Shown piece after piece: positions 1-27,000 of a DNA stretch of 64,000 nt (position 1 is the stretch's first letter; every line of letters starts with the position of its first letter). The notes under the pieces were generated by a model. It worked only from the letters and a program-made list of their open reading frames with translations, was not told the DNA's origin and searched no databases. This DNA comes from a virus. The translations under genes were made by a program, and so were the position numbers. The stretch is from positions 1-64,000 of the IMG/VR virus record IMGVR_UViG_3300030104_002385. One strand, given 5' to 3'.

Positions 1-1638
1 GACTTTCAGATCTTTGATTTAAACAGTGGTACTCAAACTGGGTTTAGAGTTAAGGCAAGAGTTAAGGCAGTATTTGACGATAGCGGTTCATCCACAGTAT
101 TCACAGGTACTTCATGGGAAATATTAGAGATATTATCACCTGGTGCCAATTATACAGTTGGTACTGTATTTCCTTTATCATATGTACATACCCTTCCTGA
201 TAACTCAACTGCTACATTGACCGTTAATTTAAAGATAACTGCCGTTGCCCCACAACCAACTGTAACAGGTCAAACTAATTTCGACGTTCTATTAATAGGT
301 GATACCATTAATGGGCATACTATAACATATGTTTGGCATAGTGATCTGGATAATTTTCCGTATCATATAATATACGTCAATGGAAGTGGTAGTAATTTTA
401 CTAAGGATACACAATATACATCTAATAGAGGTAATGTAATTACTGCAAAAGCAGGAAAAGGTATAGCAGATAGAGCAGCGTTGGTTGGAATGTATGAATT
501 TCTAGAAAAATCAACGCAATATGTTACTGTAGACGTAGATAAGAACGCACCAGACATCTTTAATCTGTTACAACAACCAGAAGTAACAGTAACACTTACA
601 AATGGAATAGTTACTAATCTTACTATAGTCAGTGGAGGATCTGGATGGGCTAGTTATAACCGTACTCCCAAAGTTATGATATCACCCCCGTCGGTCTCCA
701 CAGGTACTCAAGCAACTTGTAAGGCAGAATTTACTGGTGGAGTGCTAACTGCTATAAAAGTAGACATACCTGGTAGTGGATATTCATCTACAAACCTTCC
801 ACAGGTTTATATAACTAACGTTCATAAGGAAACGACTACTGTTTTAGAGAATGATGCGTATATTCCCGATGAATTTGAGAAATTTAAGAAGGATATTTAC
901 GATAATATACCTGGATTAGACTTTCAAGCGGATGATTTAGCAAAATTAGAGACCACACACATGTCTCAACCCGAAAAAACCATTGTAAATGACTTTGATC
1001 CGTCCTATAAAGTGAAATTAGACACTAATAGGAACAGAATTGACAAATTACCGCAACGAAAATACGCAAAAAACAGGACTCAGCACTTATATGAGAAGAC
1101 TGATGTCAAACATACCTTAGATAGCATTAAAGACATTGAAGAATTACCTAATTCTTACCTTGATTTGATGCAAAAGAACCAAATTGATGATAATAGAGCG
1201 TATCGAAGGAAGGATATTTCCGATATTACGCAGGAAACCGTACCTGATGTCACAGTTCACCGTGAAAGTTTCGTAGAGACCGTACAAGGAACCATGTCTA
1301 ATCTTCCTTACTCCTCACAATACACCAAATACCTAATGAGGCAGTACAGACCCGATACGAGAAGTGTTATAGATATAAATGTAACGCTATCTTGCACTCC
1401 TGTTAACGCAGGTTGTTCACATTTTGCTTGTAGTGCCCCTGCAGGTTCTACTGGTGGCACGACTGATAACGGAAATGGTACTTCAACTACCACATCTTAT
1501 GCAATGTCGGGTCTAATGGGTGATGGTTGTAAGTCATGGACTGCAACTGGTACCATGAAAATGTGGAATGAGTATACCAATCAACGGAATACTTGGAAAA
1601 GTGCAGTTAACGAAAACGGAAATCCCTATAATCCTTAA
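1..1638 (+). CDS. Virion structural protein, 5'-truncated, directly upstream of the PAAR gene
   Basis: Frame 1 is open from base 1 (DFQIFDLNSGTQTGFRVKARV...), so the TTG at 217 is not the true start. Contains the GSGW/GSGY-xxxP-V-I repeats seen in the other structural genes here and a Cys-containing C-terminus ending NGNPYNP. Confidence 0.6.
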   Translation, partial: DFQIFDLNSGTQTGFRVKARVKAVFDDSGSSTVFTGTSWEILEILSPGANYTVGTVFPLSYVHTLPDNSTATLTVNLKITAVAPQPTVTGQTNFDVLLIGDTINGHTITYVWHSDLDNFPYHIIYVNGSGSNFTKDTQYTSNRGNVITAKAGKGIADRAALVGMYEFLEKSTQYVTVDVDKNAPDIFNLLQQPEVTVTLTNGIVTNLTIVSGGSGWASYNRTPKVMISPPSVSTGTQATCKAEFTGGVLTAIKVDIPGSGYSSTNLPQVYITNVHKETTTVLENDAYIPDEFEKFKKDIYDNIPGLDFQADDLAKLETTHMSQPEKTIVNDFDPSYKVKLDTNRNRIDKLPQRKYAKNRTQHLYEKTDVKHTLDSIKDIEELPNSYLDLMQKNQIDDNRAYRRKDISDITQETVPDVTVHRESFVETVQGTMSNLPYSSQYTKYLMRQYRPDTRSVIDINVTLSCTPVNAGCSHFACSAPAGSTGGTTDNGNGTSTTTSYAMSGLMGDGCKSWTATGTMKMWNEYTNQRNTWKSAVNENGNPYNP

Positions 1639-2955: not shown

Positions 2956-2958
2956 ATT

Positions 2959-6052: not shown

Positions 6053-9000
6053 ATGACAAATATCAATAAGGTTTCTCAGGCAATTAATGCCCAAACACCT
6101 GAGTTTATCAGGAGTGACTATAAACTATTCAACAAATTTGTTGAATATTACTATAGATCACAAGAAAAAACGGGTTTAGGTCAGAATTTACTTAACAATT
6201 TTCTTCAATATCTGGATATTGATAAGTTGGATATTAGTATCCTTGATGGTGCGACTAAGGTAGTAGAAGATGTAAAAGCAACTGATGAAACGATAGTAGT
6301 AGAAACAATTGATGCATTCTTAGAGAAGAATGGATCAGTAATGATAGGCGATGAGGTAATATATTACGAGAAAACGACTTCTGCTCCAAATATAGCATTA
6401 AGTCCAGGTATTTCATATGATCAGGTAAAATTAAAGTGGACTGGTCTTGCAAATCCACTTAAATCTTTTGATGGCACAACTACATCATTCCCATTAACTT
6501 CACAGAACAATCCAGTTGCTCCTCCTTCTGCACAACACTTGATTGTTAGTGTTTATGGTGAAACTTTAATTCCAAATACTGATTATACTGTTAGTGGAAC
6601 CAATATTGTATTTACAACTGCTCCTAGACTAAAATTAGCATCAGATGGTGAAAGTTTTACTTATATCACTTATTTGAGTGGTTTTGTTGAGAATACTATT
6701 GTTGGAACGGATAATATTTCTAATACATTTGGTGATAGTAAGAAACAATTTACTTTAACTAGAAATGGTGTAAGATATGCACCAGAAATTACTGAATATG
6801 TTATTGCTGTATATGATAATAAACTTTTAATACCTAAAGTAGACTTCTTCCTTGATGATGACCAGTTTATATTTAAAACTGCTCCTCTAAATGGTAGAGC
6901 ATTATCAGTATACGCTATTGAGGCACCTATTCCTTCTTTTGGTTCTAATGCTGTAGGATATTCTCGTGTTGATGATACTGGTAATATCACTAGTATTGCA
7001 ATTAATGCAAATGGTACTGGTTACAGGTATGAATATCCACCAAAAGTTTCTATTAACTCGGATACTGGTAGTGGTGCTTCTGCAACTGCTTTAGTTAATG
7101 GTATTAAGAGTGTTGCTCTTCTAGATGGTGGTAAAGGTTATAGTGATACTAACCCACCTACTGTTGTTATTCAAACTCCAACTAAAACTGGATCTAGTGT
7201 AGCATCTGTTAAGGCAACTGTTACTAATGGTGAGGTTTCTGGACTTGAAGTTACCAATTCTGGTAGTGGGTATACTTTTACTCCTAGACTTACTTTCTTA
7301 CAACCTGGAGGTGCTATATTAGGTGCTCCAACTATTTCTAGCGGTCAAATAACTGGTACTGTACCAATTACTACTGCTGGTCAAGGATATACAACGGTTC
7401 CAACCATTTATGTTGATGAACCAACTGGTTCTAACCCAATTAAAGCAAATTTAAGAGCAGTTTTAACAGATGGTAAGGTTACTGGTGTTACTATACTAAA
7501 TGCTGGTCAAGGATATGAAACTGTACCTAGAATAGCAATTATTGACCCAGTTGGTGCTCAAATTCTTCAAACATCGGTTGATGGTGATGGTCGTGTTATC
7601 AATATTGAGATTTTAAGTGGTGGTGGTGGATATGAAGATACCCCATCTGTTTATATTGTAGATGATAGAGTAAATGATCTAGGAGTTTATATTGGTGGTA
7701 CTGGAGCAACTGCTACAGCATCGATTTTCAATGGTCAGATCATTGATATCAACATTACCAATTTTGGTACTGGGTATAGTGCTGTAACACCTCCTCAAAT
7801 CATAATTCAGTCACCACCTTCAGCAGAAGCTTCTGCTACTATTGGTTTAAATGAAGTTACTGGATTTACAGTAAATCAGGCTGGTTCTGGATATACTAAA
7901 GCACAATTTGAAGGATGTGCTAGAGCAGCGAGTGCAATTAAAGAATATACTGAAGATGGTAATGCAGTATTCTCTAATAACACTGTTGCGTCTGCTGCAA
8001 CTAAAGAAACTACTGTTAAGTGTCTAGATGCTGTATTTGTTAAAAGATTACTTGATAAGTACACAGAACAGTTCTTACCTGATGTTCCTAGTTTAGATTA
8101 TACAAAAATTGATGTTAGAAACTCTATTAAGACAATTAAGGACTTCTATTCATCTAAAGGTACTTCTTATAGTATTGCTTACTTATTTAAGTTACTATAC
8201 GGTGAAACTGTAAGTATTTCTTATCCAAAAGACCAAATAATCAAACCTTCTGATGCTACTTGGTCAATTGACACCATTCTTCGTGCAACTTTAGTTAGTG
8301 GTAATCCTGATAATATTAGAGATGGTCTATTAACTCAAGATGCTGATATTGCAGATACTAATGTATTAGCAGCAAGTGCTTTAATAGAAAACTTTATTTC
8401 TATTAAAACATCAGAAACAGAGATATTTGAGTTAGTTTTATCAGAAGAAACTATTGTAGGAAAGTTCACAGTACCTTATAAGACAAGACTTGCTGAACCA
8501 TTAACTGCAACTGCTGGTATCATCACTGTTGACTCTACAATTGGTTGGCCAGAAAGAAACGGTGAATTTGTCATAGGTACAGGTGCTACAGCAGAAGTTG
8601 TACAATATAAGGAAAAATCACTTAACCAGTTTATAGAATGTACTCGTTCTGTAAATGGTGTTGTTGAAGATTGGGATTCTGCTACTGGAATAGCATCAAA
8701 CTTCACAGTGTATGTCAATAAAGGGACTTCTCAAGAAGTTGTGATGAATATTGTTGGTATTGTTGATGCAGAACAAACAACACTGACAGATACTGGATCT
8801 TACTACTTACCAGGTGATAAACTAACTGTTTCTAAGTTAGGTGGTACTGGCGAAGGAGCAGACTTAAAAACTTGGTTATATAACGTTAAAAAGTTGGTTA
8901 CTGTGACATCTATCACTTATGGTGGTGTTAATAATCAATCTGCAACTGTTACATGTGCTAATGCTCATGGTCTTCTTGTTGGTGATCAGGTAACTGTATA

Positions 9001-12000
9001 TGGTGCTAACCCCATTATCTACAACGGATCCTTCTTTGTAACATCTAGAGATACTGCGAATGTTTTCCAGTATCAATTACCTCAACCTGCTACAGTTGTA
9101 CCTCAAGGTAATATTCTTGTATCTGTTGACCTTAATAAAGGTAAGTCGGATAATACTGCTATTTTAAATGTTATTGGACCATATACAACTAACGTCCAGA
9201 ATACATTTTTCAATGATACCCATGTGTATGTTGCTTCTACAGGTATTCCAAACTATGAAATTGGACCTTTTCCAGGATCTGCACTTCTTCCAGGTAACCA
9301 ACGTAAATTAAATAGGTTCCCTAAAACTTCACAGACAATTTCAACTAAAAACCTAATATCAAGTAATGTACCTGTTGGTACATGGGTAAACGGTGTTTCT
9401 ATATGGTCTTATAAGTCTAAATTAACTAAAACTTTTGGTGCTTTAACTGCAATTTCAATTACTACAGCAGGTAAAGAATATGATGCTGCTTCTCCTCCAG
9501 CTATGACAATAGATGGTGGTGGAGGTAGTGGTGCTACTGCAAGTGTAACTGTTGATGGTTCTATCTCTGAGATCACAGTCACTGCAGGGGGTTCTGGGTA
9601 CACATCATCACCATTGGTGTCTATAGTCGGTGGTAATGGTGCTGGTGCTGCTGCAACTGCTATTATTACCAAAGGAGTTGTTTCACGTATTTTAATTAAC
9701 GATGGTGGTTCTGGATATACTTCACAACCTCAAATAACAATTGTTGGAGGTGGCGGATCTGGTGCAACTGCTACGGCATCTGTTCGTGGTCCTATTAAAA
9801 CTGTTGCTATTACAAGTGGTGGTGCATCTTATACCTCAGTACCAACAGTAAGTCTAAGTTCTGGTAGTGGTGCTGTTGCACAAGCAATCGTTAATGATGG
9901 TAGAATTATATCTATTGCTATCATTTCTGCTGGATCTGGATATACTACTGCACCTGAAGTAACTATTCAAGGTGTTGGATTTGGTGCTATTGCTAGAGCA
10001 ACTATTGACACTGATGGAGAAAATGCTGGAAGAGTAACTAATATTGAGATTATTAATAAGGGTATTAACTATGTTCAAGGAACTACACTTATTAACTTAA
10101 CTTCTATTGGATCTGAAGCTACTTTCACACCATCTGTGTTCCAGTGGACTTACAACCTTCAAGCAACATCAACATTCGATGCTGCGAAAGGTGCTGTATT
10201 TGAAGGTTATAACAACGAATATGGTGGTGAATATGCTCACTTATCCAATCCTCAGAAATTAAGATATATTCTTGGTGATAACTTATTCCAAAATACTGAT
10301 GGTGCTATTAAGGAGCAAGAGACACAATTAGCACACTCACCTATTATTGGTTGGGCATTTGATGGTAATCCGATATATGGACCTTATGGATACACTGATC
10401 CTACTGATCAAACCTCTACTATTACAAAATTAAACACATCATACAGATTAAAGACAAATTTAGTCTTTGATGCAACTAACAACCCATTTCCTTCTAGAAC
10501 TGCTGGTCCTCTTATAACAGATGAGGCTTCTGGTAATTTTGTTGAAGATTATGAGTATGTCTTTGGTTTAGGTGATTTAGATCAATATAATGGACGTTTT
10601 TGTAAGACACCCGATTTCCCAGATGGTAGATATGTATATTTCGTAACTATTGATGCTACAGAGGATGGTAATCCACTATTCCCTTATGTTATTGGTCCTA
10701 GTTACAACTCTGTTGTTGATACTTGGAACTTAACTCCTAATGCTATTCAACAGAACATTCCTACTGGTGTTGTTAGATATAGAGACCCATATGAGAATGT
10801 TGATATTGATGTTGAAAGAACTCCAAACGCAGCATCAAATGCATTAACTATGGAGAATGGTGATATTCTCTTATTTGATGCAGAGGATGATAACCGTGAT
10901 GGTGTTATCGAATCTGATGAAGTACCAAGACAAATGTTCGAGGAATCTCCTTTACAACTCTTTGATTACTTCCCTAAAGTTAAATTTGACTCTAAAGTTG
11001 ATATTGAAGTTGAGACTACTACTAAATTTGAAGATGCATCTGTTACTGGATTTACAGTTGAAAACCCAGGTAAAAACTATCAGGTAGATGATCGTCTTGT
11101 ATTTGATAATACAGATACTGATGGATCTGGTGTTTCTGCACGTGTTTCTAGAATTAAAGGTGAAACAGTTTCTGCTTACACATTTGAAAATATCAGTGGA
11201 TTCAATTTTGGTGTTCTACAAACTTCTATACCTCACAATATTGTTGCTGGCGATCAGGTATTTGTAGATTATACACCTATAATGGCGAATACCAATAAGA
11301 CATTTATTGTTCGTCAATTTAAAGGTATTGAGCAAATTGTTATTGACCAAACAGGATCAGGATATAATACTGACATTCCTCCATCAGTTATTATTGATGG
11401 TGATGGATCATCTGGAGAATTAGAAGCTACTGTTAGTTCTGTAGGATCTATTGATACTATTAATATCATAAATTCAGGATCTGGTTATACTAAGAACCCT
11501 AGAGTTATCCTAACTCACCCACAGATCTTTAAAAAAGCAGATTACTACATCTCTAAGATATCAAATAACAGTTATGTTAAAATTAATGATGTTCATGTAG
11601 CAGATAATAAAGAATCATACCTTTGTGGTATGACTAAGGATGCTAGTGGAAATCAAGTTGCTTTTATTGCTAAAGTTTCAGCAACTGGTGTTAAGCAATG
11701 GGAAAGAACTTTAGAAAGTAATACAGGTCAAAATTATACAGAATTCCAGAAAATTTTTGTTGATGGTAATAGTATATGGGTAGTTGGTGGTAATAAACCA
11801 AATGGTAATATGCTATCAGCATATAACCCTGATATAATCTTAGCAAAATACACACAAGCAGAAAATGGTCTAAGTGCTGCATTAACTTTCCAGAAAGGAT
11901 ATGCTGGTATTTCAGGTTCTACTCGTGCTGATTATGTAACTTCACTTAAGAAATATTCAGATACTCGTTTCATTATTGCTGGTTATACCAATACTAACTC

Positions 12001-15000
12001 AGGTGCTCCTTTCGATGCTTGGATTGCATCTATTGACACTACAGGTAATTTTGCTATTAAGAGAAAATTAGCAACTACTAATGCATCCGAGAAAATTACA
12101 GATCTAATTGTTAATGGTACAGATATCTACTTGTGTATGGAAGTTGCTACAACTTCCACTGAAGGAGATGTTAATCCTGCCATTGCTAAGATAACACTTG
12201 GGGTAAATGCATTTACAGTTGATTGGATTAAGCAATACACAAATGTTCTTTATTCTACTCTTGATACAAGCATATGTATTGATGAATTTAATGAAATCTA
12301 TCTCACATCAACTTTAAGACTTAAATCTGATGATACTACTAGAGATAGTTTCTGGGTAGGTAAAGTAGATTCTACAGGAGATTTACTATGGAACTATCGT
12401 TATGTTACTCCAGGTAGAGATATATCACTTGCTAAGAAATCTGTCATTGACATTTTTGGTGATTTAAACATTGCATTTACTAGAACAAATAATACAAACA
12501 CTTTTAAGACTGTAGATTCAGTTAAAATTGGTTATGATGGTAAACTTAAGAACCATAGTACAAATTCATTTACTAATGATAACGTAGAAGGTCTTACTGT
12601 ACACTCATTAGATGTTGATAATTCAGGTGATATTCATCTTTATGGTCAAACCAATTACAATAGAAATGAATTTATATTCGACTTTGCTTCTAATGCAACT
12701 ACCGATGTAACAGGACATTATACACTCAATACTACTTCTGCAACTAATTCAATTACTGTTGCTGGTAATCTTGCTAAGATTTATGGTTATAATCCTGCTG
12801 GTCTTAATAGTTCTTGGGTAAATTCTTACTTTGATATTTCTTCTTCTGCTTTAGGTACAAAATTAGCAAATGATTGGACTTTAGAGTTCTTTATTCATAG
12901 AGTAAGTTCAGAATCTCAAACTTTATCACAAACTAATCAAACTCTATTTGGTATCGGTGGAGCACAAGATGCTACTGGTGGATTATGGTTAGGATATGAT
13001 ATGAGTTCTGGTAAGTTGCAATTTGCAGCAACTAATAATTCAACTGCATTAAGTGGTGCTACACCAGTAGAATCTACACAAACCAACATGTTTGCTAATA
13101 ATAGTTGGCAAGTTATTGGTGTTAAGAAAGAAGGTAATGATTTCAAAGTATATGTCAATGGTATTCAGGTAATTACTGGTATTATTTCTAATACTGCTCT
13201 AGGTGCTAAAACACTATACTTTGGTAACCAAGTAGGTTGGGGTACTGGTGCTGGAGACTTTAAGAAAGAAAGACAAGGACAATTCTATATTGATAATATT
13301 AGACTTAGAAATGGAGCAGTTGTACCAACAGTTCCTAATGATATTCAGAACTTACCTCCAACTGATACTTTTGCATTAAGTTATAGTTGGAATGATACTT
13401 CATGGTTCACTACTAATCTAAACAGATATGATTATATCGATTATGTTGGTTGGGGATTAAAAGTTGATAAAGATGCTGATGCTGCAAGGATTGGTACTCA
13501 AAGTACTCAAACCAATACTCAAATTGGATTTACTAGAACTGCTGTAAGTCCTGTAACTGGAAGTGTATTAACTGTTACAACAACTGGAATATCTTTAGCA
13601 TCTGCTGGATTGCAGTCATTAGATTATGATGATGCAACTATAACACTTCTTCAAGATACTGAGACATTAACTTACACTCAGGATACATGGAGTTCCAGAA
13701 CAGCAACAGTACCTTCACCAGGTTCTCAAAAACTTAAGGTATCTGCTGTAGTTAAAGATCGTTATTTCTTTAAGGTTACAAATACAATTAAAATTGATAA
13801 TATTCAAGAATTAACTGTAAATCAGGCATTCAACTTCACCGTTGGTGCGAAATTAAGATTGAATAATGATTCTGGTACATTTGTTAATAGTGGTTACATA
13901 ATCAAGACAGATACTGTTAATAATAAGGTATATCTTGCTGTTAATAATAATGCTTGGACAGATGATTTAAATACTGGAAAATTAGTTACAGAACAGTTTA
14001 ATGAGCAAAGTACTTATGGTATTGTAGGACCAATTCCAAATGATACTAATATTATACAAAATTATGTTTTCTCAATGGTCAACAATACCACTCCTGGTAC
14101 TTTTGACATAGATTTAGATGATTATAATTTAGATGGCACTGGTTATAATGCTGGTGGTGGTCAGAACCTAGATGGATTTGCTAAGTTCAAACCATTCCTA
14201 GTTGCTGATTATTCAGTTAAAATTGAGGAAGTTGCTGGTGGGTCACCATTTATTGTTGGATCTGTAGTTAATATTGCTGCTAGTAATATTTCATTCAATG
14301 CAACATATACAACTGCTCAAGTTACAGGTCTAACTGCAGTTACTAAGATTACGTTAACTGCTAATTTAAATAAGACACTTCAAGTAACTGCTGTTGCTAA
14401 TACTAATGAAGTGTATGTTATCACAGCAACAAGTCATTATTTGAATAAGGGTGAAATATTATATGTTGATGGTAACCCATCACAGACTGTTGGTGGTACT
14501 GTTTATGATGAGTATGATGGTGCATTTGCTGTAGATACTATAGTAAGTCCTTTAGAATTTACATATAAATTACCAACTATTGCAATTACTGACCCTGCAA
14601 CATCTGCAGGTACTGTAAGTATCTTTGTTAAGTCACCAACTCTTAAAATGTACTATGGTCATCAGTATTTGTTTGACCTAAGTCACTCTTCTCTTGTAGG
14701 TGGTAACTTATCCTTCTCTAAGGATAACTTATACAAACTAGAGTATTCATTCAACTCTATTGAAAGAATAGGTATTCCTGGTGTTACAGGTGGTGGACAA
14801 CCAAGTCCTTCTGTTAAATTGAAAATTGATGATACTATTGTTACTAATATTTCATATTACTTTGATCCATCTAGAACAGGAGATAATTCCCCTGTTGTTG
14901 CTGGTAGTTACTTAGATGTTGTAGAATCTCCTTATAAAGGAACTTTTGATATTACATCTACTTCAGGACAGACAATTACTTCAGGACCAGATACATTCAA

Positions 15001-18000
15001 ATTCCTACTTGCTAATGAACCTGAAGGAAATGCTTCTATATCTCAAACATCTTATAGTACTAGTTCAGTTAAAGCAGTTGGTTCTATAAACGCTATTAGA
15101 ATTGTTAATCCAGGTGGTTTCTATACTAAATTACCTGTTGTTACTGGTATTTCATCAACCAGAAAGATTGAACGAGCAACCATTGAAGAACCAGGAACTG
15201 AATATGCTGTAGGAACTTATAATGGTGTACCTATTACTGGTGACGGTGAAGGTGGTCTTGTACAAATTACTGTTGCTGATGGTCTAGATGACGATGGTAT
15301 AACAATTCCAGGTCAAATTAATGCTGTTGTAATTACTTCAGCAGGTAAAGGATATACCACTGCATCTATTGACATTGATTCAGTAGCAGGAATTCTTGGA
15401 TCTGGATTGACTGGATCAGGAGCAAAAGTAAATGTAATTATCCCACCTTTCGGTACTGAAGCATCTATCTTCACTAAAGGTGATAAAGTTGGTAAGATTA
15501 AGAAACTTAAGAACAATAACTTTGGTTATGATTATCCTCATGACTATACTTTACGTCCTGAGATTACATTCCCATTAAATGCTCAGTTAACTTCTACAAG
15601 TATTCTTTCTAGTATTACAGTAACTAATCCAGGTTCTGGATATTCATTAGCACCTGCTGTAATAATTACAGGTGGTGGTGGATCTGGTGCTACTGCAGAA
15701 TCAAGTATTAAAAATGGTCGATTAGATAATATTGTTGTTAAAGATCCTGGTGCTGGTTATTCATCAACACCAACTATTAGTTTAAGATCTTCCTTTAACT
15801 ATGTTGTAAACCTTGACTTAGGTTTATTACAGTTTGCTTATCCTCATGGTATTGTTAATGGTGCTGCAGTAAGTGTAGCAGTTACTGATACTGGAGATGG
15901 TGCTGATTTCCCTCTTGCTGCTGGTGCTATTGGTCGTCTTAACGCAACTACTACCTATTATGCAATTGCTGGTGCTACTAACTCTTTAGAAGGTGATCAG
16001 TTAAAACTTGCAATTACTGCTTCAAACGCTGCTCTTGGAGACGCAATTTCCTTCGTTAACGCTGGTGAAGGTCGTCAAAGTGTATTAACTGAATCATTTG
16101 GTGGTGCTGCTGAAGCAAATGTTATTACTTCTACTTTCCTTGAAGGTGAATTGGTTTATCAGGGTGATACATTAGATGTTGCTACTGCAACTGGATATGT
16201 TTCTACAAACTCTGGTTGGCAGATTGGACCTAGAATTCTTAAGATTGTTGACTATACAGGAACCTTTGCTAATGGTCAAAAGATTACAGGTGTTATTTCT
16301 AAGTCTTCTGGTACTATAAGTGATCTTAAAGTTGCTCGTGGTGTTCTAGAGATTGGTTCTATTACCAAAACTACAGGTCAGTTTATCGATGATGTTGGTA
16401 AACCATCCGAAATTATTCAAAAAATCCAAGACTCTTACTATTATCAGGACTTCTCTTATGCTGTTAAGTCTGCAGTTTCTATTAGTGATTGGAAAGAAAT
16501 TCTTATTAGAAACGTACACCCTGCATCATTTAAGGTATTTGGTGAGTTAAATCTTAATGAATATGGTCAAATTCCTAATAAGGATACCTTCTTCCAGTTA
16601 ACTAAGTCTGTTGAACTTGCACAGGAAGCAATTGTTCCTAATATTCAGAACTTTGCTTTAGTTGAACCAATATACACAGAGTTCAATAATACCGAGGTTT
16701 TATTCCGTCAGAAGAGATTGACATCTTCAGAGAACATTTTGACCTCTGTTGTACAACGTATTGATGATATTTCTAACCTGTTTGATGGTCAAAAGATTGC
16801 ATTCCCTCTAACTGTTAATGGTAACAACGTTGTTGCTAATGCTAATCAGTTAATGATTGTTCTTAACGGTGTTGTACAAAACCCAGAGACATCATTCAAC
16901 ATTCAGTCAGATTCCATTGTATTCAGTGAACCACCTTCACCACCTGCAAGTGTTAAGTATGCTAACATAACAGTTTCTCAAATTCAAACTGTTGCTTTTG
17001 AGTTTACTAATATTAGCGGTATTTTCCCTAATATTGGAAATCCTCTTGTTGGTAGTAGTACAAATGCAAGATTAATTGTAACTAACGTTACTGGTAATAC
17101 TGTTTCTGGTTATATTACAGAAGGAACCTTTGTTATAGGTGAATTAGTTAGTGTTGGTGCAACAGGGTTCTCTGCTCTCTTAGCATCAAATACTGCTGTA
17201 TCAAATATTGGTCTATTTACATTTGGTGAGAATGTAACTAACTTAACTGGAGATATTGCAAAAGTTGAACAAATTAACTTAGCAACAGGTCAAGAAACTC
17301 CAGCAGCACAATTGCGTTATGCAGTTGGACCTTCAACTACAAGTATTGAGGTAATTCCTTATGGAGGTGCTTCATTATCACCAGTCACTGCTGGAACCTT
17401 TGTAGCAACTCAGAATTATCAATTTGGATCTGAGATATTCCTAGTCAATAGTATTACTGATAATGCAGACTCCACAACTCTTGGGGTATCAAGAGGACAG
17501 GTTGGAACTCAGGCAGTAGCACAACAAGAAAATACACCAGTTTATAGCACTGTTATTGCTGTTACTAATGCATTAACATTAAGTAAGACTGCTGGTACAT
17601 ATAAGTCAACTCCTGGATTATTTGATATTCAGTTGAATGATATTATTATTGGTTCTAATTCTGGAGTTGTTGCTAGTGTTGCATCTACTAGTGCGTATCA
17701 AGATCCTACAACCAATGAGTTTATAGGACAGGTTAATATTTCTCCTGGATCTTCTTTCTTTGGATTGTTATTTAACAGAATTACTTCTTCATCATATCCT
17801 AATGTTGTTCTAGATAACATTTCTCAATCTCAAGTTAATGTTGTAGATTTCACTGATAATCTTACTGCATTTGATAGTAAGTTCCCTGCAAATGAATTAA
17901 TCAATAATTATGTAATACCTTATGATAATGCTGTAGGAAGTATAGTTCAGGATGAATATGTTCGTAACTATAGGATCAATTATGGTAATAATGTTGGAGA

Positions 18001-21000
18001 CTTTACTAGTTCAGAAGATGGAAGAGTAAGAAAACTATCTTTCTACGACAAGCAAGGAACTGGTTTCTTTAATAATGGTCAGATCATAAGAACTAGGGAT
18101 ACAAAGGCAGAAGTTATCGGTTATAGTCAGGCACGTGATATTGTTTATCTTGGTAAGATAGGTAGAACACAATCAAATGGTGAAGATTATTACAAATTCA
18201 CCTTTAGTGAAGATGCTAAATTAGATACTACACAGAAAAAATTTGGTTTAACTTCATTAGAACTTGCAGCAGCAGATTATATTAGCACTCCTTCAACTAC
18301 AGAAATTGCTTTTGGTTCTGGTGTGTTCACTGTAGATCTATGGATAAGACCTGCTACTGCTTCATTAAGTGGTAATGTTGATATTTTTGATACAAGATCA
18401 TCAGGTGCAACTGAAGTTGCTGGTAGATTGTATTTGGCAACTGGTCAACCACGTTGGCATGTTAATGGTTCTGATTTAGTAACTACAAGTACCACTTTAA
18501 CTGCTGATACTTGGGTACATATTGCTATTGTCAGAGTATCCACTACAACAAAAATTTATATAAACGGTACTGAGGCAGGGACTGCTACTGATAACTCATC
18601 ATATATCGCAAAACCAATTCGTATCGGTGCTGATTATGCAGGTGCTAATGGATTTACTGGTCATGTTGATGAATTAAGAATTTCAAATACTTCTCGTTAT
18701 ACCACAGCATTTACTGCTCCTAATGGAATATACCAAGGTGATGCTAATACAAAATTACTACTTCACTTTGAAGGTATAGATGGTGGAGTACATGTTGAAG
18801 ATTGGTCTGGTGTAGAATCATTTACAGCAGGTGAATACTTCAATAATGATTCTATTATTGATACTGTGCGTAAAGTTGCTGGTAAGCATACTTGGGCTGG
18901 TGGTACAGCTAACAATGCTATTAGAATAACAGGTGGTGTAGAAAAGGATGTTACTGATGCTACTTACAATCCAAATACAGGTGACCTAGTATTAACAATT
19001 GGATCACACAGTTATACAACATCTAATACTATTACAATTAAACCAAACTCTTTGACATTTACCTGTGCTAAGGATAATAATGCTACTAATCATACCTATC
19101 CAAGAGTAACTGATCCTGCATATGGTGCAACATTAGCAATCTCAGCAGAAACTGCTACTACAATAACAGTTAATGTTGGTATAGCAAATAGAGGATTTGT
19201 TGGTAATACTCAGAGATACATTAATGCTGGAGATTTGATTACTTCAAACTTAGATTTTATTGCTAAGGAAGTTGTATATCTAATCAATCAGAAATTCCCT
19301 AACTTTACAGTTATTGGTGGTAATGTTAATTGCGAGGATGATGTTAGAGATGTTTGTAAGGCAATTGTATTTGATATTCAGAATGGTAGTAATAGTAAGA
19401 TATGGGATGCAGCGAGTTACTATGTTAATAGAGCAGATGTTAACAATGTTCAACTTCTCAACGTTGAGAAAGAAATTATAGAGACTGTTTGGGCATATGG
19501 AAAGTTAGATGAAATTCTTGACTTTATTGTTACTAACTCTCTATGGGATGTTCAAGGTGATCATGGATTAACTCAGAAGACTGATACTTCTATCACCGAT
19601 TCTACTACATCATCATTTACAGAAATTACTCCAACCAATGTAGTTTATAGTGCTGCAACAGGAGATCTTAAGATAACAAAATCATCTCATGGTTTTGTTG
19701 GTCCTTCTGCACTTACAGCAACAGGAGCAACTTATAATCCTGCAACAGGTATCTTAGAGATAACAAGTAACAGTCATGGTTTACTTAATGGTGATAAGGT
19801 TCAATTAGAAGATGATTCATTAACATTCACTTGTTCAATGGATGAGAACAGAAGCACTCATACTTATCCAAGATCTTCTGATCATGCAAGTCAAGGTTGG
19901 TTAAGTGTTCAGAATAAGCAAACTAATACTTTCCAACTTGATGTTGGTAAAACACCTAACGTAGGTTTCCAACCTTCAGCAGCAACTTATGATGCTGAAA
20001 GTGGTCTCTTAACAATGGATATTGGTGAACATCGTTTAAGAGCAGGTACTAATGTTAAATTAGCGAAGGAATCTTTATCATTCACTTGTGATATGGATGA
20101 TGATTTTACAACTAAGAAATATCCTAGAACAACTGATCCAGTATATAATGATTCTATTCCTATTCTATATGAAGGTTCTCGTCATACAATAACCTTTGCA
20201 ACATATACACCATCATCAGGTAAGATGGTTCTTACTTGTGGTAAGCAGTTTAGTGTTACTGACGCTGCATATGTACCTACAACTGGTGTTATGACACTGA
20301 CTGTTCCTAATCATGGACTTACTGTTAATGATCAGATTAAGATTGTTAATAACAGTATTGTATTTACTTGTGCAATGGATGACCATACTACTGATCATTC
20401 ATATCCAAGATCTACTGATCCTCAAAGTGATAAGAGATTGAGTTTAAGTAACATAACAACAAACACATTTGATGTTAATGTTGGTACTACTCCAGCAGTT
20501 AACTTTACTCCTGGTGCTGGTACAACATACAATCCTGCAACTGGTGATCTAGTACTAGCAATTGGAACTCACTCACTATCTGTTGGTGATGGTATTAGAA
20601 TTGCTGATAATTCACTTACATTTACTTGTAACTATAATGGTGATGGCAACTCAACTCAGAAGACATACCCAAGATCAAGTGGTGAAAATGGTACTGCTGG
20701 TGGAGCATCTAACAACACTGGAACTCCAGACCCTGCATATCAGACTTCCGTCTATATTACTGGTACAACTTCAACAACAATTACAGTTAACGTAGGAACA
20801 TCATCAGATACTTCTACTCATGTATTCGTAACTGCTAATTCAAATGCAATAGTCACAGGTGGTGATTATGCACACATCTTCCAATATGCAGTTCCTAATG
20901 GAATTACATATGACAATCATAGATTTGAAAATGGTGATAAGGTAAGACTTCTTGATAACTCATTGACATTTACTTGTCAGTTAGATGGAAATGATACCGA

Positions 21001-24000
21001 TCACGCATATCCAAGAGTAGGAAAAGATCCTTATGCTGGTAGACAGTTTAAGATTGCTAATAAGACAGATAAGACATTTGAAATAAATGTTGGCATCTCC
21101 CCTGATAAATCCACACATACATTTAAGTCTGCATATCCAGGTGGTCTTATCCATGTTGATAATACTGTAACTTTAGATGTAGGTAAGTCACCTAAGTTGG
21201 TTCATGATATCAGTAATGCAGTTTATACTCCTGCTGATGGTAACATGGTTCTTACACTTGGAACTCATGATTTGGTTGTAGGAGACAATATTAAATTGTT
21301 GAATGAAGCTGTTACATTTACTTGTGATCAAGATAGTGATGTATCTGAGCATGCATATCCAAGAACAACAATTGATACACATCAGGCAACTACTGGTACA
21401 TCTTATAATCCTACTACAGGTATTATGAGTATCACTACCACATCTGCTCATGGAATGAGAAATGGTGATTGGGTTAAATTTGATGATGACTCACTTACAT
21501 TCAATTGCAACTTTGATGGTTATCAAACCAATAAAACTTATCCAAGATCAACTGACCCTGTTAGTGGTAAGTGGATACAAGTTTCTAACGTAGCATCTAC
21601 TACATTTGATGTTCAAGTATTGGATGTTATTCCATCTACAAACTTAGATCCTCATATCTTTGTATCTGGTACAGCAACTGGTATTAAGCAAAAACGTGAC
21701 AAGACTTTTGATACTTCTGTTTCTATCACTGCTGTTGGAACTTCTAATAAGACTGCTTCTGGTGGAGCATACAATCCCGAAACTGGTGTTCTAACCATTA
21801 CTTCTAGTAGTCATGGATTAACTGGTGCTTCTGAGCATACTGTAACTAATTCAACTTATACACCTTCAACTGGTGTTTTAACATTGACCATCGCTGGTCA
21901 TGGATTTACAAATGGTGACAGAATAAGAATTAAAGATGATTCAATAACATTTACTTGTTCTAAGGATTATGATGCAACTATTCATACATATCCTCGTTCA
22001 ACTGATCCCGTAAGTAATAAGTTCTTACATATCGTTAACGTAACTACTAATACATTTGATGTTAATGTTGGCAAGTCTCAAGATCTATCTTCACATACAT
22101 TCATTTCAGCAACATCTAATGGTATTGAAAGGGCAGTTGCTTCAGTAAAATTAGACGCAGATTCAATCACATTTAGTTGTGATATGGGTGGTGGTGCAGT
22201 TAATAAGACTTATCCACGTACTACTGATCCAATTGCTAATCAATGGGTTCCAATTACTAATAGTCAAACCAATTCATTTGATATATTTGTAGGAAAAACT
22301 GTATTTGGTAATACTGCTCATTCATATCAATCTGCAACTTCTAATGGAATTAAGGTTCAGGATGGAACAGTTACAATTAACGTTGGTATTTCATCCAACA
22401 CAACAACTCATGCTTTCGTAGAAGCGAAGAAAGGAGCATTAATTGTTGGTGGTGTTTATACACATACATTCGTTCCTCAAGCAGCATATTCTGTAACTGA
22501 TGCATCTTATAACCCAACTTCAGGTGTTATGGAATTGACCATTAATGGTCATGGATTTGAAAATGGTGATTTCATTCAAATTGCCAACGAATCATTAACA
22601 TTCAGTTGTGGTTTCAATGGAGCATCTGGTACTGCTGCACAAAAAGCATATCCAAGAGCAACTGATTTCTCTAGTGGTAAATGGTTAGAAATATCTAACG
22701 TAGCTACTAATACATTCGATGTTCAAGTTCTAGAAACAGCACCTTCTACAAACACTGATACACATACATTTGTATCTGCTACTAGTGGTGGTGTAGTAAG
22801 ATCTGCTCTTAAGACAGGTGGTGCTTATACTCATACATTTAAGTCTGCAATTGCAAATGGTATTAAGAAGCAAGGACAAGCAATTACAATTAAACCAGAA
22901 GGTCTAACACTTAAGTGCAATATTGATGATAATGCAACTAAGCACATTTATCCTCGTAAGACTGATCCTGCTTATAATTCTGCGTTAGCAATTACAAAAT
23001 ATGATACTAATACATTTACTGTAAACGTAGGTAAGTCTCTTGCAAATGAAGAAAATACACCTTATACACCAACTGCAGCAACATACGATCCTTCAAACGG
23101 TAATATGGTTCTTACACTTGGTAAGCACACTTTGACTACAAGTGACAGTGTTTTAATTGAAGATGAATCATTGAAATTCTCTTGCACGATGGATAATAAT
23201 CAGTCTCCTAAAGCATATCCTCGTTCATTACATGATACTCGTGCTTCTGGAAGACCTGTTGCTATCACTGCTGTTGGTACAACTTCACATACAATAACTG
23301 CTGCTGATTATAATCCTGTAATAGGCGAATTGTTATTGACAGTTGCTAATCATGGATTATCTGAAGGTGACATGGTTAAGTTTGATGTTAATGCAATAAG
23401 ATTTACATGTGCTAAGGATAGTAATGCTACTAACCATGATTATCCAAGATCAACAGATCCAGTTGCTGATAAGTGGATCGAAGTAAGAAATGTAACCACA
23501 ACTCAATTCAGAGTAAATGTTGGTGTTTCTTCTGATACATCTCAGCATCAATTTGTTTCTGCAGTTAGTGGAGCACTTAAGAGTCAAACAGGAACAGTTA
23601 CTGTTAATGTTGGTTCTGCTGGTACTAACGCTCAATTCACACCTTCTGCAGCAACTTATGATGCTGAGACAGGTAACATGACTTTGACTATTGGTCAACA
23701 TGGTATGAAGAAGGGTTCAAGTGTTACTATTGCTAATGCTGGTTTGACATTCAACTGCACAATGAATGGAGGATCTTCTAATAAGCAATATCCAAGATCA
23801 ACAGACCCATATGGTAATCTTAAGTCTATCCCTGTTACACATATAGGACATACACATCATACAATTACTAATGCCACTTACAGTCCTGGTATTGGTAAGT
23901 TAACGATAACCATTCCTAGTCATGGTTTCTCTAATGGTGATTATGTTCAGATTGTAGATAATTCAATAACATTTAGATGTGAACTAGATGGCAATACCAC

Positions 24001-27000
24001 AGATCATGCATATCCTAGAACTGGATTTGATCGTGCAAGTGGTGGATGGTTCGCTGTTGCTGGTGCAGCAACTGATACTTTTGATATTAATGTCGGTGTA
24101 TCTTCAGATACATCCACTCATGTATTCAAATCTGCTACAACTAAAGGTCTTCGCAAACAAAGTGGTGTAATTACGGTTAATGTTGGTGCATCTCCAATTA
24201 AGGGATATGATGTTTCTAACGCTGTATTCACTCCTTCCACTGGTGTTTTAGTTCTAACCATTGGTGAGCATAGTCTTACATCTGGCACATCTCTCAAGAT
24301 TGCTAATAATTCACTCGTATTCCGTTGTGATGCTGATGGTCAAGCTTCTGATCACTCTTATCCTCGTGCAAATGGTCAAAGTGGTGCAACTGCTGATGAT
24401 CCAGCATATAATGATGCTGTAGAAATTGTTTCTGTAACTTCTAATACAGTTACACTTAACGTTGGTACATCTTCTAACACCACTACTCATGCATTCCAAA
24501 GCACTAATAATACTTACACTGCAAGTACTGCTGCTTATAATCCAACTACAGGTGTAATGACTATTACATCTAATGGTCATGGAATGATTAATGGTGAGCA
24601 TATCAAGATTGCTGATAATTCATTAACATTCACATGTGCTCAAGATAGTAATGCTACTAATCATTCATATCCACGCCCAACTGATCCTGTATCTAATAGA
24701 TGGTTAACAATTTCTAATGTACAAACTAATACATTTGATGTTCAGGTTCTAGATCAAGTTCCATCAACAAACTTAACTGCACATACATTCGTATCTGCTA
24801 CTGCAAATGGTATTACTAGAGCAGTATTGAGTACTGGTGGTGCTTATACTCATACATTTGTAACTGCTGCTTCAAATGCTGTTTCTTATACACCACAATC
24901 AACACATACTTTCGTAAGTGCAGATCCTGGTTCTATTAAGAAGATATCAACAACACATACATTTGTTTCTAGTATTACTAATTCCATTAAACTTCTTAAC
25001 CATAATACTGCTGATTGCACTGATGTTCAAACAAACATTGAGAACTTAATTAATATCTTAACTGATACACTCAATGCTGCTAATTTAGCAACTCCTGTAG
25101 ATCATCTAGGTGCTGTAACTAGGTCTAAACCAGACTATGAATTCCTTGGTGGTAAAGTAGGAACATACTATGAAGTTCCATTCCCAGTTTCTTATCATAA
25201 TAGTACAGATGATCAGATCTACGCTAATCAGATTGATCTTGATACACAGTATAGGTTCCGTGATGCTGCAAACTTAATACGTGTTAACCTCGGTCCTATT
25301 ATTGATAAGGCATCTGCTGATATGCTCAGTAGATATCCAGATCTTGCTTTGGATATGCCTAGAAATGCTAATGGTACATCTACTGATGGTACTCTCAGGT
25401 GTAAGACAGACTTGATACTTATTGCTGAAGAAATAATCAAAGATATTGAAGATGGTGGTAACCTCAACTCTGTTAATGTTGCTAAACAGTATCTCGGAAC
25501 AAATGATGTTCTCGTACATATTAGATTACAAGTATTCCAATCTGCATATGCTCATGAACGTCTAGGTTTCTATATGAAACAGGCAATCATTGGTAACTTA
25601 AGTGGTACAAATACAGATAAGATTATTGTTGGTGACTGGGATATCACTCAAGATCCTACTACAGGAACATTTACTCCTACTGGAGCAACTTATGATTATA
25701 CAACTGGTGATTTAGTTCTAACAATTGGATCTCATACTCTTGCAGTTGGTAGAATGATCCAACTTGCTGAGAACGGACTTACATTCTCATGTAACACAGG
25801 ATCTGGTGCTGTTAATAAAACATATCCTAGATCAATAGGTGCAAATACAGCAACTGGTGCAGACTATGCATACAATACCAATCTTGCAATTACTTCAAAA
25901 ACAGCAACAACAATTACTGTTAATGTAAATGGTGGTCAAGGTCCTATCAGTAATGCTAATACACATACATTTGTATCTGCCACAACTAATTCTGTCATAG
26001 TTCCTGGTGATTGTGCTAATGTTCAAGATGCAATTGATACTTTAGTTAATACAATTAATGATATTATTGCTCCTACAGAAGAAGCATTCGGTGTTGCTGC
26101 TGATAGACTTTACTTCAACAGAGATTACATTGCTGAAGAGATAACAAATAGAGTTACTGCAGAATTTACATATACTTTAAATGGTATAAACTATTCAGCA
26201 TTCACTTATCCTGGTGCTACTGGTGAAGCAACTTGCCGAAGAGATCTCAAACTAATCATTGTTAGTATGATATCTGATTTACAAACAGGTGGAAATAATA
26301 GTACAGTTGCTGCTATTGAAAAATATTTAACTTCTACATTATCAATCAGTTATGTTGAGAAAGAATTACTACCAACTCTATATGCTATAGAGCAGTTGAA
26401 AGAACTTGGTGATTATGCTATTAGAAATAGATTATTCAACGTTGGACATACAACAGTTGGTGATCAATATGCTGCACAGTTCACATCTCAATCTGCATTC
26501 CAAGATTCATTTAATCCACCAAATATCCTTCATGTTACAACAAGATTTAACGAACTTGTAGATTTTGCTCTTAATATTCTTGCTCCTAGCAGAAAAACTG
26601 GTAGAGGTGCTGCGAAGAATATTCTTTATAATAGAAACTATTATAAGCAAGAAATTACAAACCTTGTAAATTCTCAGTTTGGTTCTGGAACATGGACTTA
26701 TGATACATTCTTAGATGAAGTTGTTGACGATTTAGTTCATGACACTATCGTAACCAACACATTAGATAATCAGTTAGGTCGTTCAATTACAATTGAAAAT
26801 GTTATAGGTGTATTTGTTAAGGGTGAAACGGTTCGCTCTAATAATAATGGAACTGCTATAGTCCTTGAGTTTGTTGCTGATACAAACTTATTAATTGTAG
26901 GAACCTTCACTGGCAGTATGTGGAAAGGTGTAGATCTCATTGAAGGATCAGTTTCTGGTGCTGTTGCTGATATTAGCGTTGGTGGAGTTAGTGATGATTA

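What the first reader, a model, noticed from the sequence alone, without database searches (positions are those of the whole stretch)
19619..24997. Recursively self-inserted protein domains: a 17-node branched tree encoded in one linear ORF
SEEN: the repeat has four ordered segments: A (Y-x-P-x-TG-x-L-x-LT-x-x-x-H), B (GD-x-I-x-I-xxx-SLTFxC...YPR), C (TDP...IT..TTNTF-x-VNVG) and D (HTFVSA..NGI). Read linearly the segments look scrambled, but as brackets they balance exactly, 17 each of A, B, C and D. Numbering copies by opening order gives 1(2(3(4(5(6)),7(8,9(10)),11)),12(13,14(15,16(17)))), depth 6, 7 leaves. Copy 1 opens at ~19625 (TPTNVVYSAATGDLKITKSSHGF), resumes B about 1050 aa later at ~22874 (GQAITIKPEGLTLKC...YPR) and closes at 24956. 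Copy 4 is split inside A (KMVLTCGKQ ... NHRFENG). Four HTFV closers pile up at 24782, 24851, 24905 and 24956. Six insertion points are used: within A, A|B, after YPR, within C, C|D and within D. Copy 3 hosts three children. INFERENCE: the domain has adjacent N and C termini and permissive loops, so the chain would fold inside-out into a dendritic, multivalent appendage on the baseplate rather than beads on a string. I know of no description of such a tree-like architecture in a virion protein, but I could not search the literature.
Basis: partly seen in the sequence, partly recalled or inferred. Interest (0 to 1): 0.95.

Follow-up and report, generated by a model that had tools for sequence, protein, structure and literature searches.

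The report
Self-nested barrel tree in cyanophage gp7
A 7,974-residue baseplate protein of a marine T4-like cyanophage carries 17 copies of one small beta-barrel domain inserted into each other's loops six levels deep, giving a branched tree rather than a chain; this build is published only for cyanobacterial RNA polymerase.

Summary
I built a profile from the 8 uninterrupted copies, cut out every full-length match, and rescanned. This consumes giant-protein residues 4526-6312 (nt 19628-24988) in 6 rounds. It yields 17 spliced domains that each match the profile end to end, with no residue left over. In 100 random orders of the same 33 pieces the parser never got beyond 13 domains or 3 rounds.

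My tree is 1(2(3(4(5(6)),7(8,9(10))),11),12(13,14(15,16,17))).

- **Relatives:** Related cyanophages carry other trees. One relative, 69% identical, differs by exactly two whole-domain indels.
- **Insertion sites:** They fall in four inter-strand loops of the predicted barrel.
- **Structure prediction:** AlphaFold2 models sub-tree 7(8,9(10)) with pLDDT 87.8. The split hosts show the same strand pattern as the leaves.
- **Fold:** The fold resembles the E1 FCCH domain and the endosialidase barrel domain. There is no Pfam family for it.

The architecture has one published precedent, the Si3 insertion of cyanobacterial RNA polymerase (8 copies solved; a six-level nest in an AlphaFold-based survey). 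I found no description of it in a virion protein. This scan has already found the same architecture in other cyanophage genomes. The function, probably multivalent adhesion, is inferred and not shown.

The parts
6053..29977 (+). Giant ORF, 7,974 aa, in the gp7 (baseplate wedge) position
   Evidence: PHROG virion structural and baseplate wedge families. Flanked by gp25-, gp6-, gp9-, gp10- and gp8-like genes. Synteny with P-SSM2, S-P4 and P-RSM4.
19628..24988 (+). Domain 1 (root). Pieces: 19628-19714 (A), 22865-23062 (B, C), 24938-24988 (D). It encloses the whole 17-domain tree.
   Evidence: Spliced score 76-81 bits over hmm 2-97/100. Fragment co-fold gave weak support only.
19715..22864 (+). 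Domain 2. Pieces: 19715-19966 (A, B, C), 22478-22486, 22796-22864 (D). Hosts domains 3 and 11.
   Evidence: 97-105 bits.
19967..22477 (+). Domain 3. Pieces: 19967-20182 (A, B, Ca), 21143-21202 (Cb), 22439-22477 (short D). Hosts domains 4 and 7.
   Evidence: 58-66 bits. Closest paralogue is domain 14, at 50%.
20183..21142 (+). Domain 4. Pieces: 20183-20248 (first part of A), 20906-21142 (rest). Split inside A at column 20. Hosts domain 5.
   Evidence: 94-97 bits.
20249..20905 (+). Domain 5. Pieces: 20249-20518 (A, B, C), 20852-20905 (D). Hosts domain 6.
   Evidence: 97-100 bits.
20519..20851 (+). Domain 6 (leaf, contiguous)
21203..22438 (+). Domain 7. Pieces: 21203-21388 (A, B), 21686-21751 (Ca), 22352-22438 (Cb, D). 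Hosts domains 8 and 9. This sub-tree was folded.
   Evidence: AF2 pLDDT 87.8, pTM 0.68.
21389..21685 (+). Domain 8 (leaf), inserted after YPR of domain 7
   Evidence: Matches beta-barrel folds in the model at residues 54-169.
21752..22351 (+). Domain 9. Pieces: 21752-21835 (A), 22127-22351 (B, C, D). Hosts domain 10.
   Evidence: Structural rows span model residues 181..386 and 178..387 with 80 residues aligned.
21836..22126 (+). Domain 10 (leaf). Folded alone.
   Evidence: AF2 pLDDT 97.2, pTM 0.87. Fold searches.
22487..22795 (+). Domain 11 (leaf).
   Evidence: 59% identical to domain 17.
23063..24937 (+). Domain 12. Pieces: 23063-23287, 23576-23635, 24884-24937. Hosts domains 13 and 14.
23288..23575 (+). 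Domain 13 (leaf). Absent from relative L006, whose host is contiguous at this point.
23636..24883 (+). Domain 14. Pieces: 23636-23857, 24149-24205, 24509-24514, 24815-24883. Hosts domains 15, 16 and 17.
23858..24148 (+). Domain 15 (leaf)
   Evidence: 56% identical to domain 4.
24206..24508 (+). Domain 16 (leaf in my parse; short D)
24515..24814 (+). Domain 17 (leaf)
25670..25996 (+). Domain 18, an un-nested copy outside the tree
18950..19189 (+). Copy 0: A, B and C only (hmm 3-82), with no D after it
   Evidence: D-only HMM upstream was not significant.

Best explanation
The region encodes 17 copies of a cyanophage-specific domain of about 100 residues. The domain is an eight-stranded beta-barrel with the motifs Y-x-P-x-TG...HG, GD...TFTC...YPR, TDP...VNVG and HTFVSA.

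Complete copies have been inserted, again and again, into four surface loops of other copies. Each host domain is therefore written in 2-4 separated pieces, and the chain encodes a branched tree six levels deep. After translation each set of pieces is expected to reassemble into one barrel. The result would be a compact branched cluster of barrels in the distal part of the gp7-position baseplate wedge giant.

The tree grows and shrinks by gain or loss of whole domains and by duplication of whole branches. The most likely role is a peripheral baseplate decoration that makes many weak contacts with the cyanobacterial cell surface.

Shown: the nesting at sequence level, its conservation and variability in relatives, and insertion sites that lie in predicted loops. 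Predicted: folding of split hosts into barrels. Inferred: overall shape and adhesive function.
For: Sequence level:
- The recursive-excision parse gives 17 end-to-end domains in 6 rounds with 0 residues left. Permuted piece orders gave at most 13 domains and at most 3 rounds.
- All 18 copies keep G13, H22, C41, YPR and H87, even when the pieces lie up to about 1,050 residues apart.

Relatives:
- Homologous giants and IMG/VR contigs show other trees. S-P4 has 1(2(3(4,5,6(7,8)))), P-RSM4 has 1(2,3(4)), others have tandem four-deep nests, and some have purely tandem arrays.
- L006 is 69% identical over 1,689 aligned residues. It differs from the window by two indels, each the size of one whole leaf.

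Insertion sites:
- They cluster at profile columns 20-28, 55, 72 and 79-80. All of these lie between strands of the pLDDT-97.2 leaf model.

Structure prediction:
- AF2 of sub-tree 7(8,9(10)) gave pLDDT 87.8 and pTM 0.68. Split hosts show the same b1-b8 pattern as leaves.
- Barrel folds align over model ranges 181..386 and 178..387 with only 80 residues aligned, as expected if host 9's two pieces are matched and leaf 10 is skipped; the tool reports only the first and last aligned residue.

Pairing of D pieces with hosts:
- In a subtype-consistency test, the nested assignment beat 99.25% of 5,040 permutations.

Root pieces A1 + B1C1 + D1 folded together:
- Weak support: score 0.49 against a best control of 0.28.
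- In calibration the mark was reached by 58 of 80 solved complexes and 2 of 110 mismatched pairs. At scores of 0.60 or less it was reached by only 7 of those 80, and by both of the mismatches that passed.
- The runs agree in at least 83% of contacts, and the partner pLDDT is at least 60.

Evolution and context:
- Paralogy 3~14, 4~15, 7~16 and 8~11~17, plus a 187-nt DNA repeat at 72% identity, indicate branch duplication.
- The gene sits in a baseplate context. A homologous giant (T4-GC969) was detected in S-SM1 virions (PMC3037559; S-P4 annotation).
- A ConA-like lectin domain lies just upstream.
Against: - No coordinates or PAE were available, so contacts between distant pieces were never measured directly.
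- Only 4 of the 17 nodes were modelled together. The D pile-ups (D6/D5 and D17/D14/D12/D1) were not modelled.
- The root co-fold gave only weak support.
- In Si3, nested domains sometimes swap strands (PMC11515920), so exact one-set-one-barrel pairing may not hold everywhere.
- The placement of copies 11 and 17 is ambiguous.
- The tree is no more divergent than its flanks (69% against 62% identity with L006), which does not suggest a fast-evolving receptor-binding tip.
Confidence: 0.8

Rival explanations
1. The pieces of a host domain are completed by pieces from another copy of the giant protein in the baseplate (inter-subunit swapping), or by non-nested (crossing) partners in the same chain. 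The bracket order would then be an evolutionary trace and not the folding plan.
For: Recursively inserted HABAS domains in Si3 exchange secondary-structure elements (PMC11515920). Baseplate wedge proteins are present in several copies per virion (established T4 knowledge). ABC of domain 14 resembles ABC of domain 3, but the DNA repeat links D14 with D2. The root co-fold was only weak.
Against: AF2 folds the monomeric sub-tree with pLDDT 87.8. The nested D assignment beats 99.25% of permutations. Swapping D2 and D3 lowers the consistency score from 0.33 to -0.19.
Confidence: 0.1
2. There is no nesting in 3D. The motifs are strands of an extended beta-fibre or solenoid in which each segment pairs with its linear neighbours, and the balanced order is a by-product of segmental duplications.
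For: Many phage fibre proteins are built from short beta repeats. No experimental structure exists. Purely tandem arrays of the same domain exist in relatives.
Against: The exact Dyck-type balance leaves no leftover residue, which none of 100 permuted orders approached. Spliced hosts score 58-105 bits end to end. Indels are whole domains. Insertion points are restricted to four loops. The AF2 model and the barrel alignments spanning host 9 also argue against it.
Confidence: 0.05
3. The pattern is an artefact, either a misassembly of a repetitive region or chance.
For: The region is repetitive at protein level.
Against: DNA copies are only 60-84% identical over at most 187 nt. The ORF is uninterrupted. 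An independent metagenome contig (L006) is colinear over the whole tree, and L005 and L007 are colinear over the parts they cover. The permutation control also argues against chance.
Confidence: 0.01

Closest known systems
Si3 insertion of cyanobacterial RNA polymerase beta' (RpoC2): recursively inserted SBHM/HABAS domains (PMC10895346, PMC11515920, PMC13114784)
   Same: One small beta domain is inserted into loops of other copies of itself. Hosts are built from distant stretches of chain. Nesting is several levels deep: eight SBHMs are solved, four of them discontinuous, and a 'six-level' nest was reported in an AlphaFold-based survey. Some nodes bifurcate. A GD-type motif sits in a strand-loop.
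   Different: The protein and its role differ: this is a virion baseplate giant, not an enzyme's trigger loop. The fold's best matches here are FCCH, endosialidase-barrel and FNR-like barrels. This tree has about twice as many nodes (17) and four reusable insertion loops. Tree topology varies widely between close relatives, from tandem arrays to depth 8. This one has no experimental structure.
E1 ubiquitin-activating enzyme FCCH domain and the beta-barrel domain of phage endosialidases (Pfam E1_FCCH, End_beta_barrel)
   Same: Closest solved folds:
. From my own knowledge, both are themselves domains inserted into a larger host domain.
T4 gp7 baseplate wedge protein and cyanophage 'gp7' giants (P-SSM2 gp7, T4-GC969 of S-SM1 and S-P4)
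   Same: The gene sits between gp6 and the gp9/gp10/gp8 homologues. There are N-terminal baseplate-wedge PHROG matches. A homologue was detected in virions.
   Different: It is 7,974 aa, against about 1,000 aa for T4 gp7. The nested barrel tree lies in a distal region with no T4 counterpart.

Membership tests
Recursive homotypic domain insertion (architecture class exemplified by RNAP Si3) | A complete copy of a domain interrupts the sequence of another copy of the same domain | tested here: met
   HMM hits with complementary profile ranges flank full-length hits. For example, aa 5234-5257 (hmm 2-25) and 5364-5433 (hmm 29-100) flank leaf 5262-5358. Spliced hosts align end to end.
Recursive homotypic domain insertion (architecture class exemplified by RNAP Si3) | Recursion: inserted copies are themselves hosts, over several levels | tested here: met
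   Six excision rounds, depth 6, 9 host nodes. Permuted controls reached at most 3 rounds.
Recursive homotypic domain insertion (architecture class exemplified by RNAP Si3) | Split hosts fold into the same domain in three dimensions | tested here: inconclusive
   AF2 sub-tree pLDDT 87.8 with the leaf-like strand pattern in hosts 7 and 9. Barrel alignments span host 9. The root co-fold was weak. No coordinates, PAE or experimental structure were available.
SBHM / HABAS domain superfamily | Sandwich-barrel hybrid motif fold or sequence homology | tested here: inconclusive
   The fold searches listed FCCH, endosialidase-barrel and FNR-like barrels as best matches. There was no Pfam match. A family that is not listed is not excluded.
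E1_FCCH (PF16190) / End_beta_barrel (PF12195) | Pfam gathering score reached | tested here: not met
   24.3 bits against a cut-off of 29.5, and 17 bits against 35. Only 3 and 2 of 43 leaves match, with best E-values of 4e-4 and 1e-2 respectively.
E1_FCCH (PF16190) / End_beta_barrel (PF12195) | Same barrel fold | tested here: met
T4-type gp7 baseplate wedge protein | Gene position in the wedge module (gp25, gp6, gp7, then gp8/gp9/gp10) | tested here: met
   PHROG matches of the flanking ORFs. Same order in P-SSM2, S-P4, P-RSM4 and S-SSM4.
T4-type gp7 baseplate wedge protein | Sequence homology to the wedge core | tested here: inconclusive
   PF23786 Baseplate_wedge scored 23.3 bits against a cut-off of 27. 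There are strong PHROG 'baseplate wedge subunit' matches, such as phrog_2885 at 1e-253.
T4-type gp7 baseplate wedge protein | Presence in the virion | not testable with these tools
   Only by homology: T4-GC969 was detected in S-SM1 virions (PMC3037559).

The most novel reading that the evidence does not exclude
The barrel tree is a genuinely dendritic, multivalent adhesin. In this reading its branching pattern, not just its residues, is the evolvable trait that tunes host recognition. Its discontinuous barrels would be held together by a His-Cys-His metal site contributed by the A, B and D pieces. It would be the largest natural branched protein built from one self-inserting domain, and a model for how long chains fold when partners lie 1,000 residues apart.
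Probability: 0.2. Interest if true: 0.85.

Novelty: new variant of a known kind. Interest (0 to 1): 0.74.

Why it matters
Domain insertion is usually a single event between unrelated domains. Here one fold has inserted into itself 16 times in a single chain, at four reusable loops. Relatives sample many other trees, from plain tandem arrays to nests eight deep. This gives a natural series for three questions:
- How do proteins grow by insertion?
- How does a barrel fold when its strands are separated by up to about 1,050 residues?
- Does branching geometry matter for phage adsorption to Prochlorococcus and Synechococcus?

It also matters for annotation. Linear domain callers split these giants into fragments and miss the architecture. 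For protein design, it offers an insertion-tolerant scaffold.

Tried and rejected
- **Foldseek with the whole 413-residue sub-tree.** It gave only meaningless global hits (TM about 0.1). I folded a leaf alone instead.
- **Pfam.** There was no family for the domain. The ESM Atlas gave only unnamed viral clusters and a viral E1_FCCH-labelled cluster.
- **Circular permutation of copy 0 (D before A).** A D-only HMM on the upstream 'HTWAGGTAN' scored -1.9 bits (E 0.23). This is unproven.
- **Hypervariability.** The tree is 69% identical to L006 against 62% for the flanks. The tree is not more divergent per residue; the variation is by whole domains.
- **Misassembly.** There are no long near-identical DNA repeats.
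- **Other ORFs in the window.** None carries the domain.
- **Megablast.** It found only short patches in known phages. The window's own record is withheld.
- **A-to-BCD pairing test for hosts 1, 4 and 9.** The diagonal was highest for hosts 4 and 9 but not for host 1. With only 6 permutations it has no statistical power.
- **Direct contact measurement.** I could not obtain coordinates or PAE from the models, so contacts were not measured.


Full report
**Context.** The finding lies in a single ORF, 6053..29977 on the + strand, of 7,974 aa. The ORF matches PHROG 'virion structural protein' and 'baseplate wedge subunit' families. It is flanked by gp25-like, gp6-like, gp9-like, gp10-like and gp8-like genes. 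The same order is seen in Prochlorococcus phage P-SSM2, where the gene is annotated gp7, and in S-P4, P-RSM4 and S-SSM4. The window is therefore a T4-like marine cyanomyovirus and the protein occupies the gp7 position. Megablast finds only short patches in known phages. A homologous giant (T4-GC969) was detected by proteomics in S-SM1 virions (PMC3037559; the S-P4 annotation names that cluster).

**Checking the observation.** I avoided relying on a manual parse.
- I aligned the eight copies that are visibly uninterrupted and built an HMM from them.
- Scanning the giant gave truncated matches whose profile ranges complement each other around full-length matches. One example is aa 5234-5257 (hmm 2-25) and 5364-5433 (hmm 29-100) around leaf 5262-5358. 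Another is aa 4711-4730 (hmm 1-20) and 4951-5032 (hmm 17-100).
- I then wrote a 'reduce' parser: excise every full-length hit, close the gap, rescan.
- On the giant it removed 9, 3, 3, 1, 1 and 1 domains in six rounds. It consumed aa 4526-6312 completely.
- All 17 spliced domains align over profile positions 1-2 to 95-101, at 58-152 bits.
- In 100 random permutations of the same 33 pieces the parser found only 8-13 domains, left at least 419 residues, and never went beyond 3 rounds.
- A broader HMM built from 140 leaves of many phages gave the same tree.

**The tree.** My tree is 1(2(3(4(5(6)),7(8,9(10))),11),12(13,14(15,16,17))). An un-nested copy 18 lies at nt 25670-25996. A short 'VRSAL'/'TRAVL' linker follows each of these leaves, and 'ERAVAS' follows leaf 10, so the placement cannot be settled from sequence alone.

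**Not an artefact.** DNA copies are 60-84% identical over at most 187 nt, which is too divergent to cause a misassembly. Independent metagenome contigs are colinear with the window.

**Relatives.** The same parser applied to homologous giants gives different trees:
- S-P4: 1(2(3(4,5,6(7,8)))).
- P-RSM4: 1(2,3(4)).
- S-SSM4: 2(3(4)).
- IMG/VR contigs: tandem arrays of four-deep nests, mixed arrays such as 1(2) 3 4 5(6) 7 8 9, and purely tandem arrays.

A profile search of 1.84 billion representative proteins finds 758 clusters (E of 1e-3 or less). Among the best 150 the parser finds nests up to depth 8, a protein with 24 domains in six four-deep nests, and plain tandem arrays of 9-10 copies.

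The closest relative, L006, is 69% identical over 1,689 aligned residues. Its tree is 1(2(3(4(5(6,7)),8(9,10(11))),12),13(14(15,16,17))). A global alignment shows just two long gaps. One covers an extra leaf in L006. The other covers window leaf 13, where L006's host domain is contiguous. So the same host exists in both split and unsplit form, which is the classical signature of domain insertion or deletion. The tree is no more divergent per residue than its flanks, at 69% against 62%. Variation is modular.

**Insertion sites and fold.** I mapped every break onto profile columns across all parsed proteins. This gives four hot spots: columns 20-28 (24 events), 55 (12), 72 (53) and 79-80 (103).

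A leaf (copy 10) folded with a 43-row alignment gives pLDDT 97.2 and pTM 0.87. Its eight strands are at residues 5-9, 14-18, 29-31, 37-41, 49-52, 63-65, 73-77 and 87-92. Copy 10 aligns to the profile without gaps, so each hot spot falls in a loop: b2-b3, b5-b6, b6-b7 or b7-b8.

An even number of antiparallel strands should put the two termini at the same end of the barrel. That is what an insertable domain needs. This is an inference; I could not inspect coordinates.

Closest solved folds:
- Further hits include decoration domains of phage tail proteins and FNR-type FAD-binding barrels.

These agree with the sub-threshold Pfam hits to E1_FCCH and End_beta_barrel. In the viral predicted-structure library the only strong matches are unnamed cyanophage structural proteins. 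The domain has no Pfam family.

**Do the split hosts fold?** Sub-tree 7(8,9(10)) is aa 5051-5463. I folded it with orthologues and leaves as the alignment. The result was pLDDT 87.8, pTM 0.68, and no segment below pLDDT 50. Hosts 7 and 9 show the same strand series as the leaves.

For the root, I co-folded its three pieces as separate chains:
- The result was weak support: score 0.49 against a best control of 0.28.
- In calibration the mark was reached by 58 of 80 solved complexes and 2 of 110 mismatched pairs. At scores of 0.60 or less it was reached by only 7 of those 80, and by both mismatches that passed.
- The runs agree in at least 83% of contacts, and the partner pLDDT is at least 60.

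To test which D closes which host, I compared each host's A-B-C similarity profile to the leaves with the similarity profile of each candidate D. The nested assignment beats 99.25% of the 5,040 permutations.

All 18 copies keep G13, H22, C41, YPR and H87. This includes copy 1, whose A lies about 1,050 residues from its B. That conservation is hard to explain unless each A-B-C-D set forms one unit.

**History.** The closest paralogues are 3~14 (50%), 4~15 (56%), 7~16 (48%) and 8~11~17 (55-59%). A 187-nt repeat of 72% identity links [C11-D11-linker-D2] with [C17-D17-linker-D14]. This fits duplication of a whole branch of the type host(child, child, child), followed by further insertions into copies 4 and 7. 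How a complete copy is placed in a loop at the DNA level remains unexplained. An offset tandem duplication would only make tandem arrays.

**Comparison with what is known.** Literature searches found one published system of this kind, the Si3 insertion of cyanobacterial RNA polymerase beta'.
- The crystal structure has eight SBHM domains, four of them built from distant stretches of chain (PMC10895346).
- The domains are described as HABAS domains 'recursively inserted' and sometimes strand-swapped (PMC11515920).
- A 2026 survey of 2.7 million domains cites it as the extreme case, a 'six-level' nest (PMC13114784).

I found no description of such an architecture in a virion protein or for this domain. 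The present case shares the principle. It differs in protein class, fold, number of nodes (17), degree of branching, and the great variability of tree shape among relatives.

Earlier agents of this scan reported the same architecture in gp7-like giants of other cyanophage genomes. Those are unpublished AI notes. My parse of relatives agrees with them in substance.

**Function.** Nothing here tests function. Three points make a peripheral, carbohydrate- or surface-binding decoration the most likely role. The gene sits in the baseplate module. A ConA-like lectin domain lies just upstream. The fold resembles the endosialidase barrel, which from my own knowledge is lectin-like. I rate this at roughly 40%.

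**Verdict.** The claim of complete novelty is tempered by Si3. I classify it as a new variant of a known kind, with high interest for protein evolution and phage structure.

Noticed in passing
window 18950-19189 (giant aa 4300-4379): Copy 0 of the barrel has A, B and C (93 bits) but no D after it. A helical region follows. The D-like 'HTWAGGTAN' just upstream is not significant with a D-only HMM, so circular permutation is unproven.
   Followed up: partly
all 18 copies, e.g. window 21836-22126: Invariant G13, H22, C41, Y52-P53-R54 and H87. The His, Cys and His residues come from the A, B and D pieces, so a metal site or other staple joining discontinuous pieces is conceivable.
   Followed up: no
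window ~18272-18694 and ~10127-10657: A ConA-like Laminin_G_3 domain (79 bits) lies just upstream of the barrel region. A YHYH domain (116 bits) lies at giant aa 1359-1535.
   Followed up: no
window 22127-22144, 22796-22810, 24815-24829: A short 'xRAVxS/L' linker follows leaves 10, 11 and 17 where the chain returns to its host. D segments of hosts with a column-79 insert start with 'TGGxYxH'.
   Followed up: partly
L025:1-7278 and P0002: Some relatives carry tandem arrays of identical four-deep nests, 1(2(3(4))), repeated 4-6 times (up to 24 domains). This suggests that whole nests are duplicated as units.
   Followed up: partly
P0010 (4,419 aa): This representative protein has a nest eight levels deep, 1(2(3(4(5(6(7,8(9))))))). 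That is deeper than the window's tree and deeper than the published six-level case.
   Followed up: partly
window 19190-19627 and 24989-25669: Helical-looking regions flank the tree on both sides, and another follows copy 18. I did not test whether the tree is itself an insert in a helical domain.
   Followed up: no
L008-L013, about nt 2926-3000: In the 40%-identical relatives the sub-tree equivalent to domain 7 lacks the host's A segment at that position. D-like sequence precedes B instead, which implies a different break point for that host.
   Followed up: no
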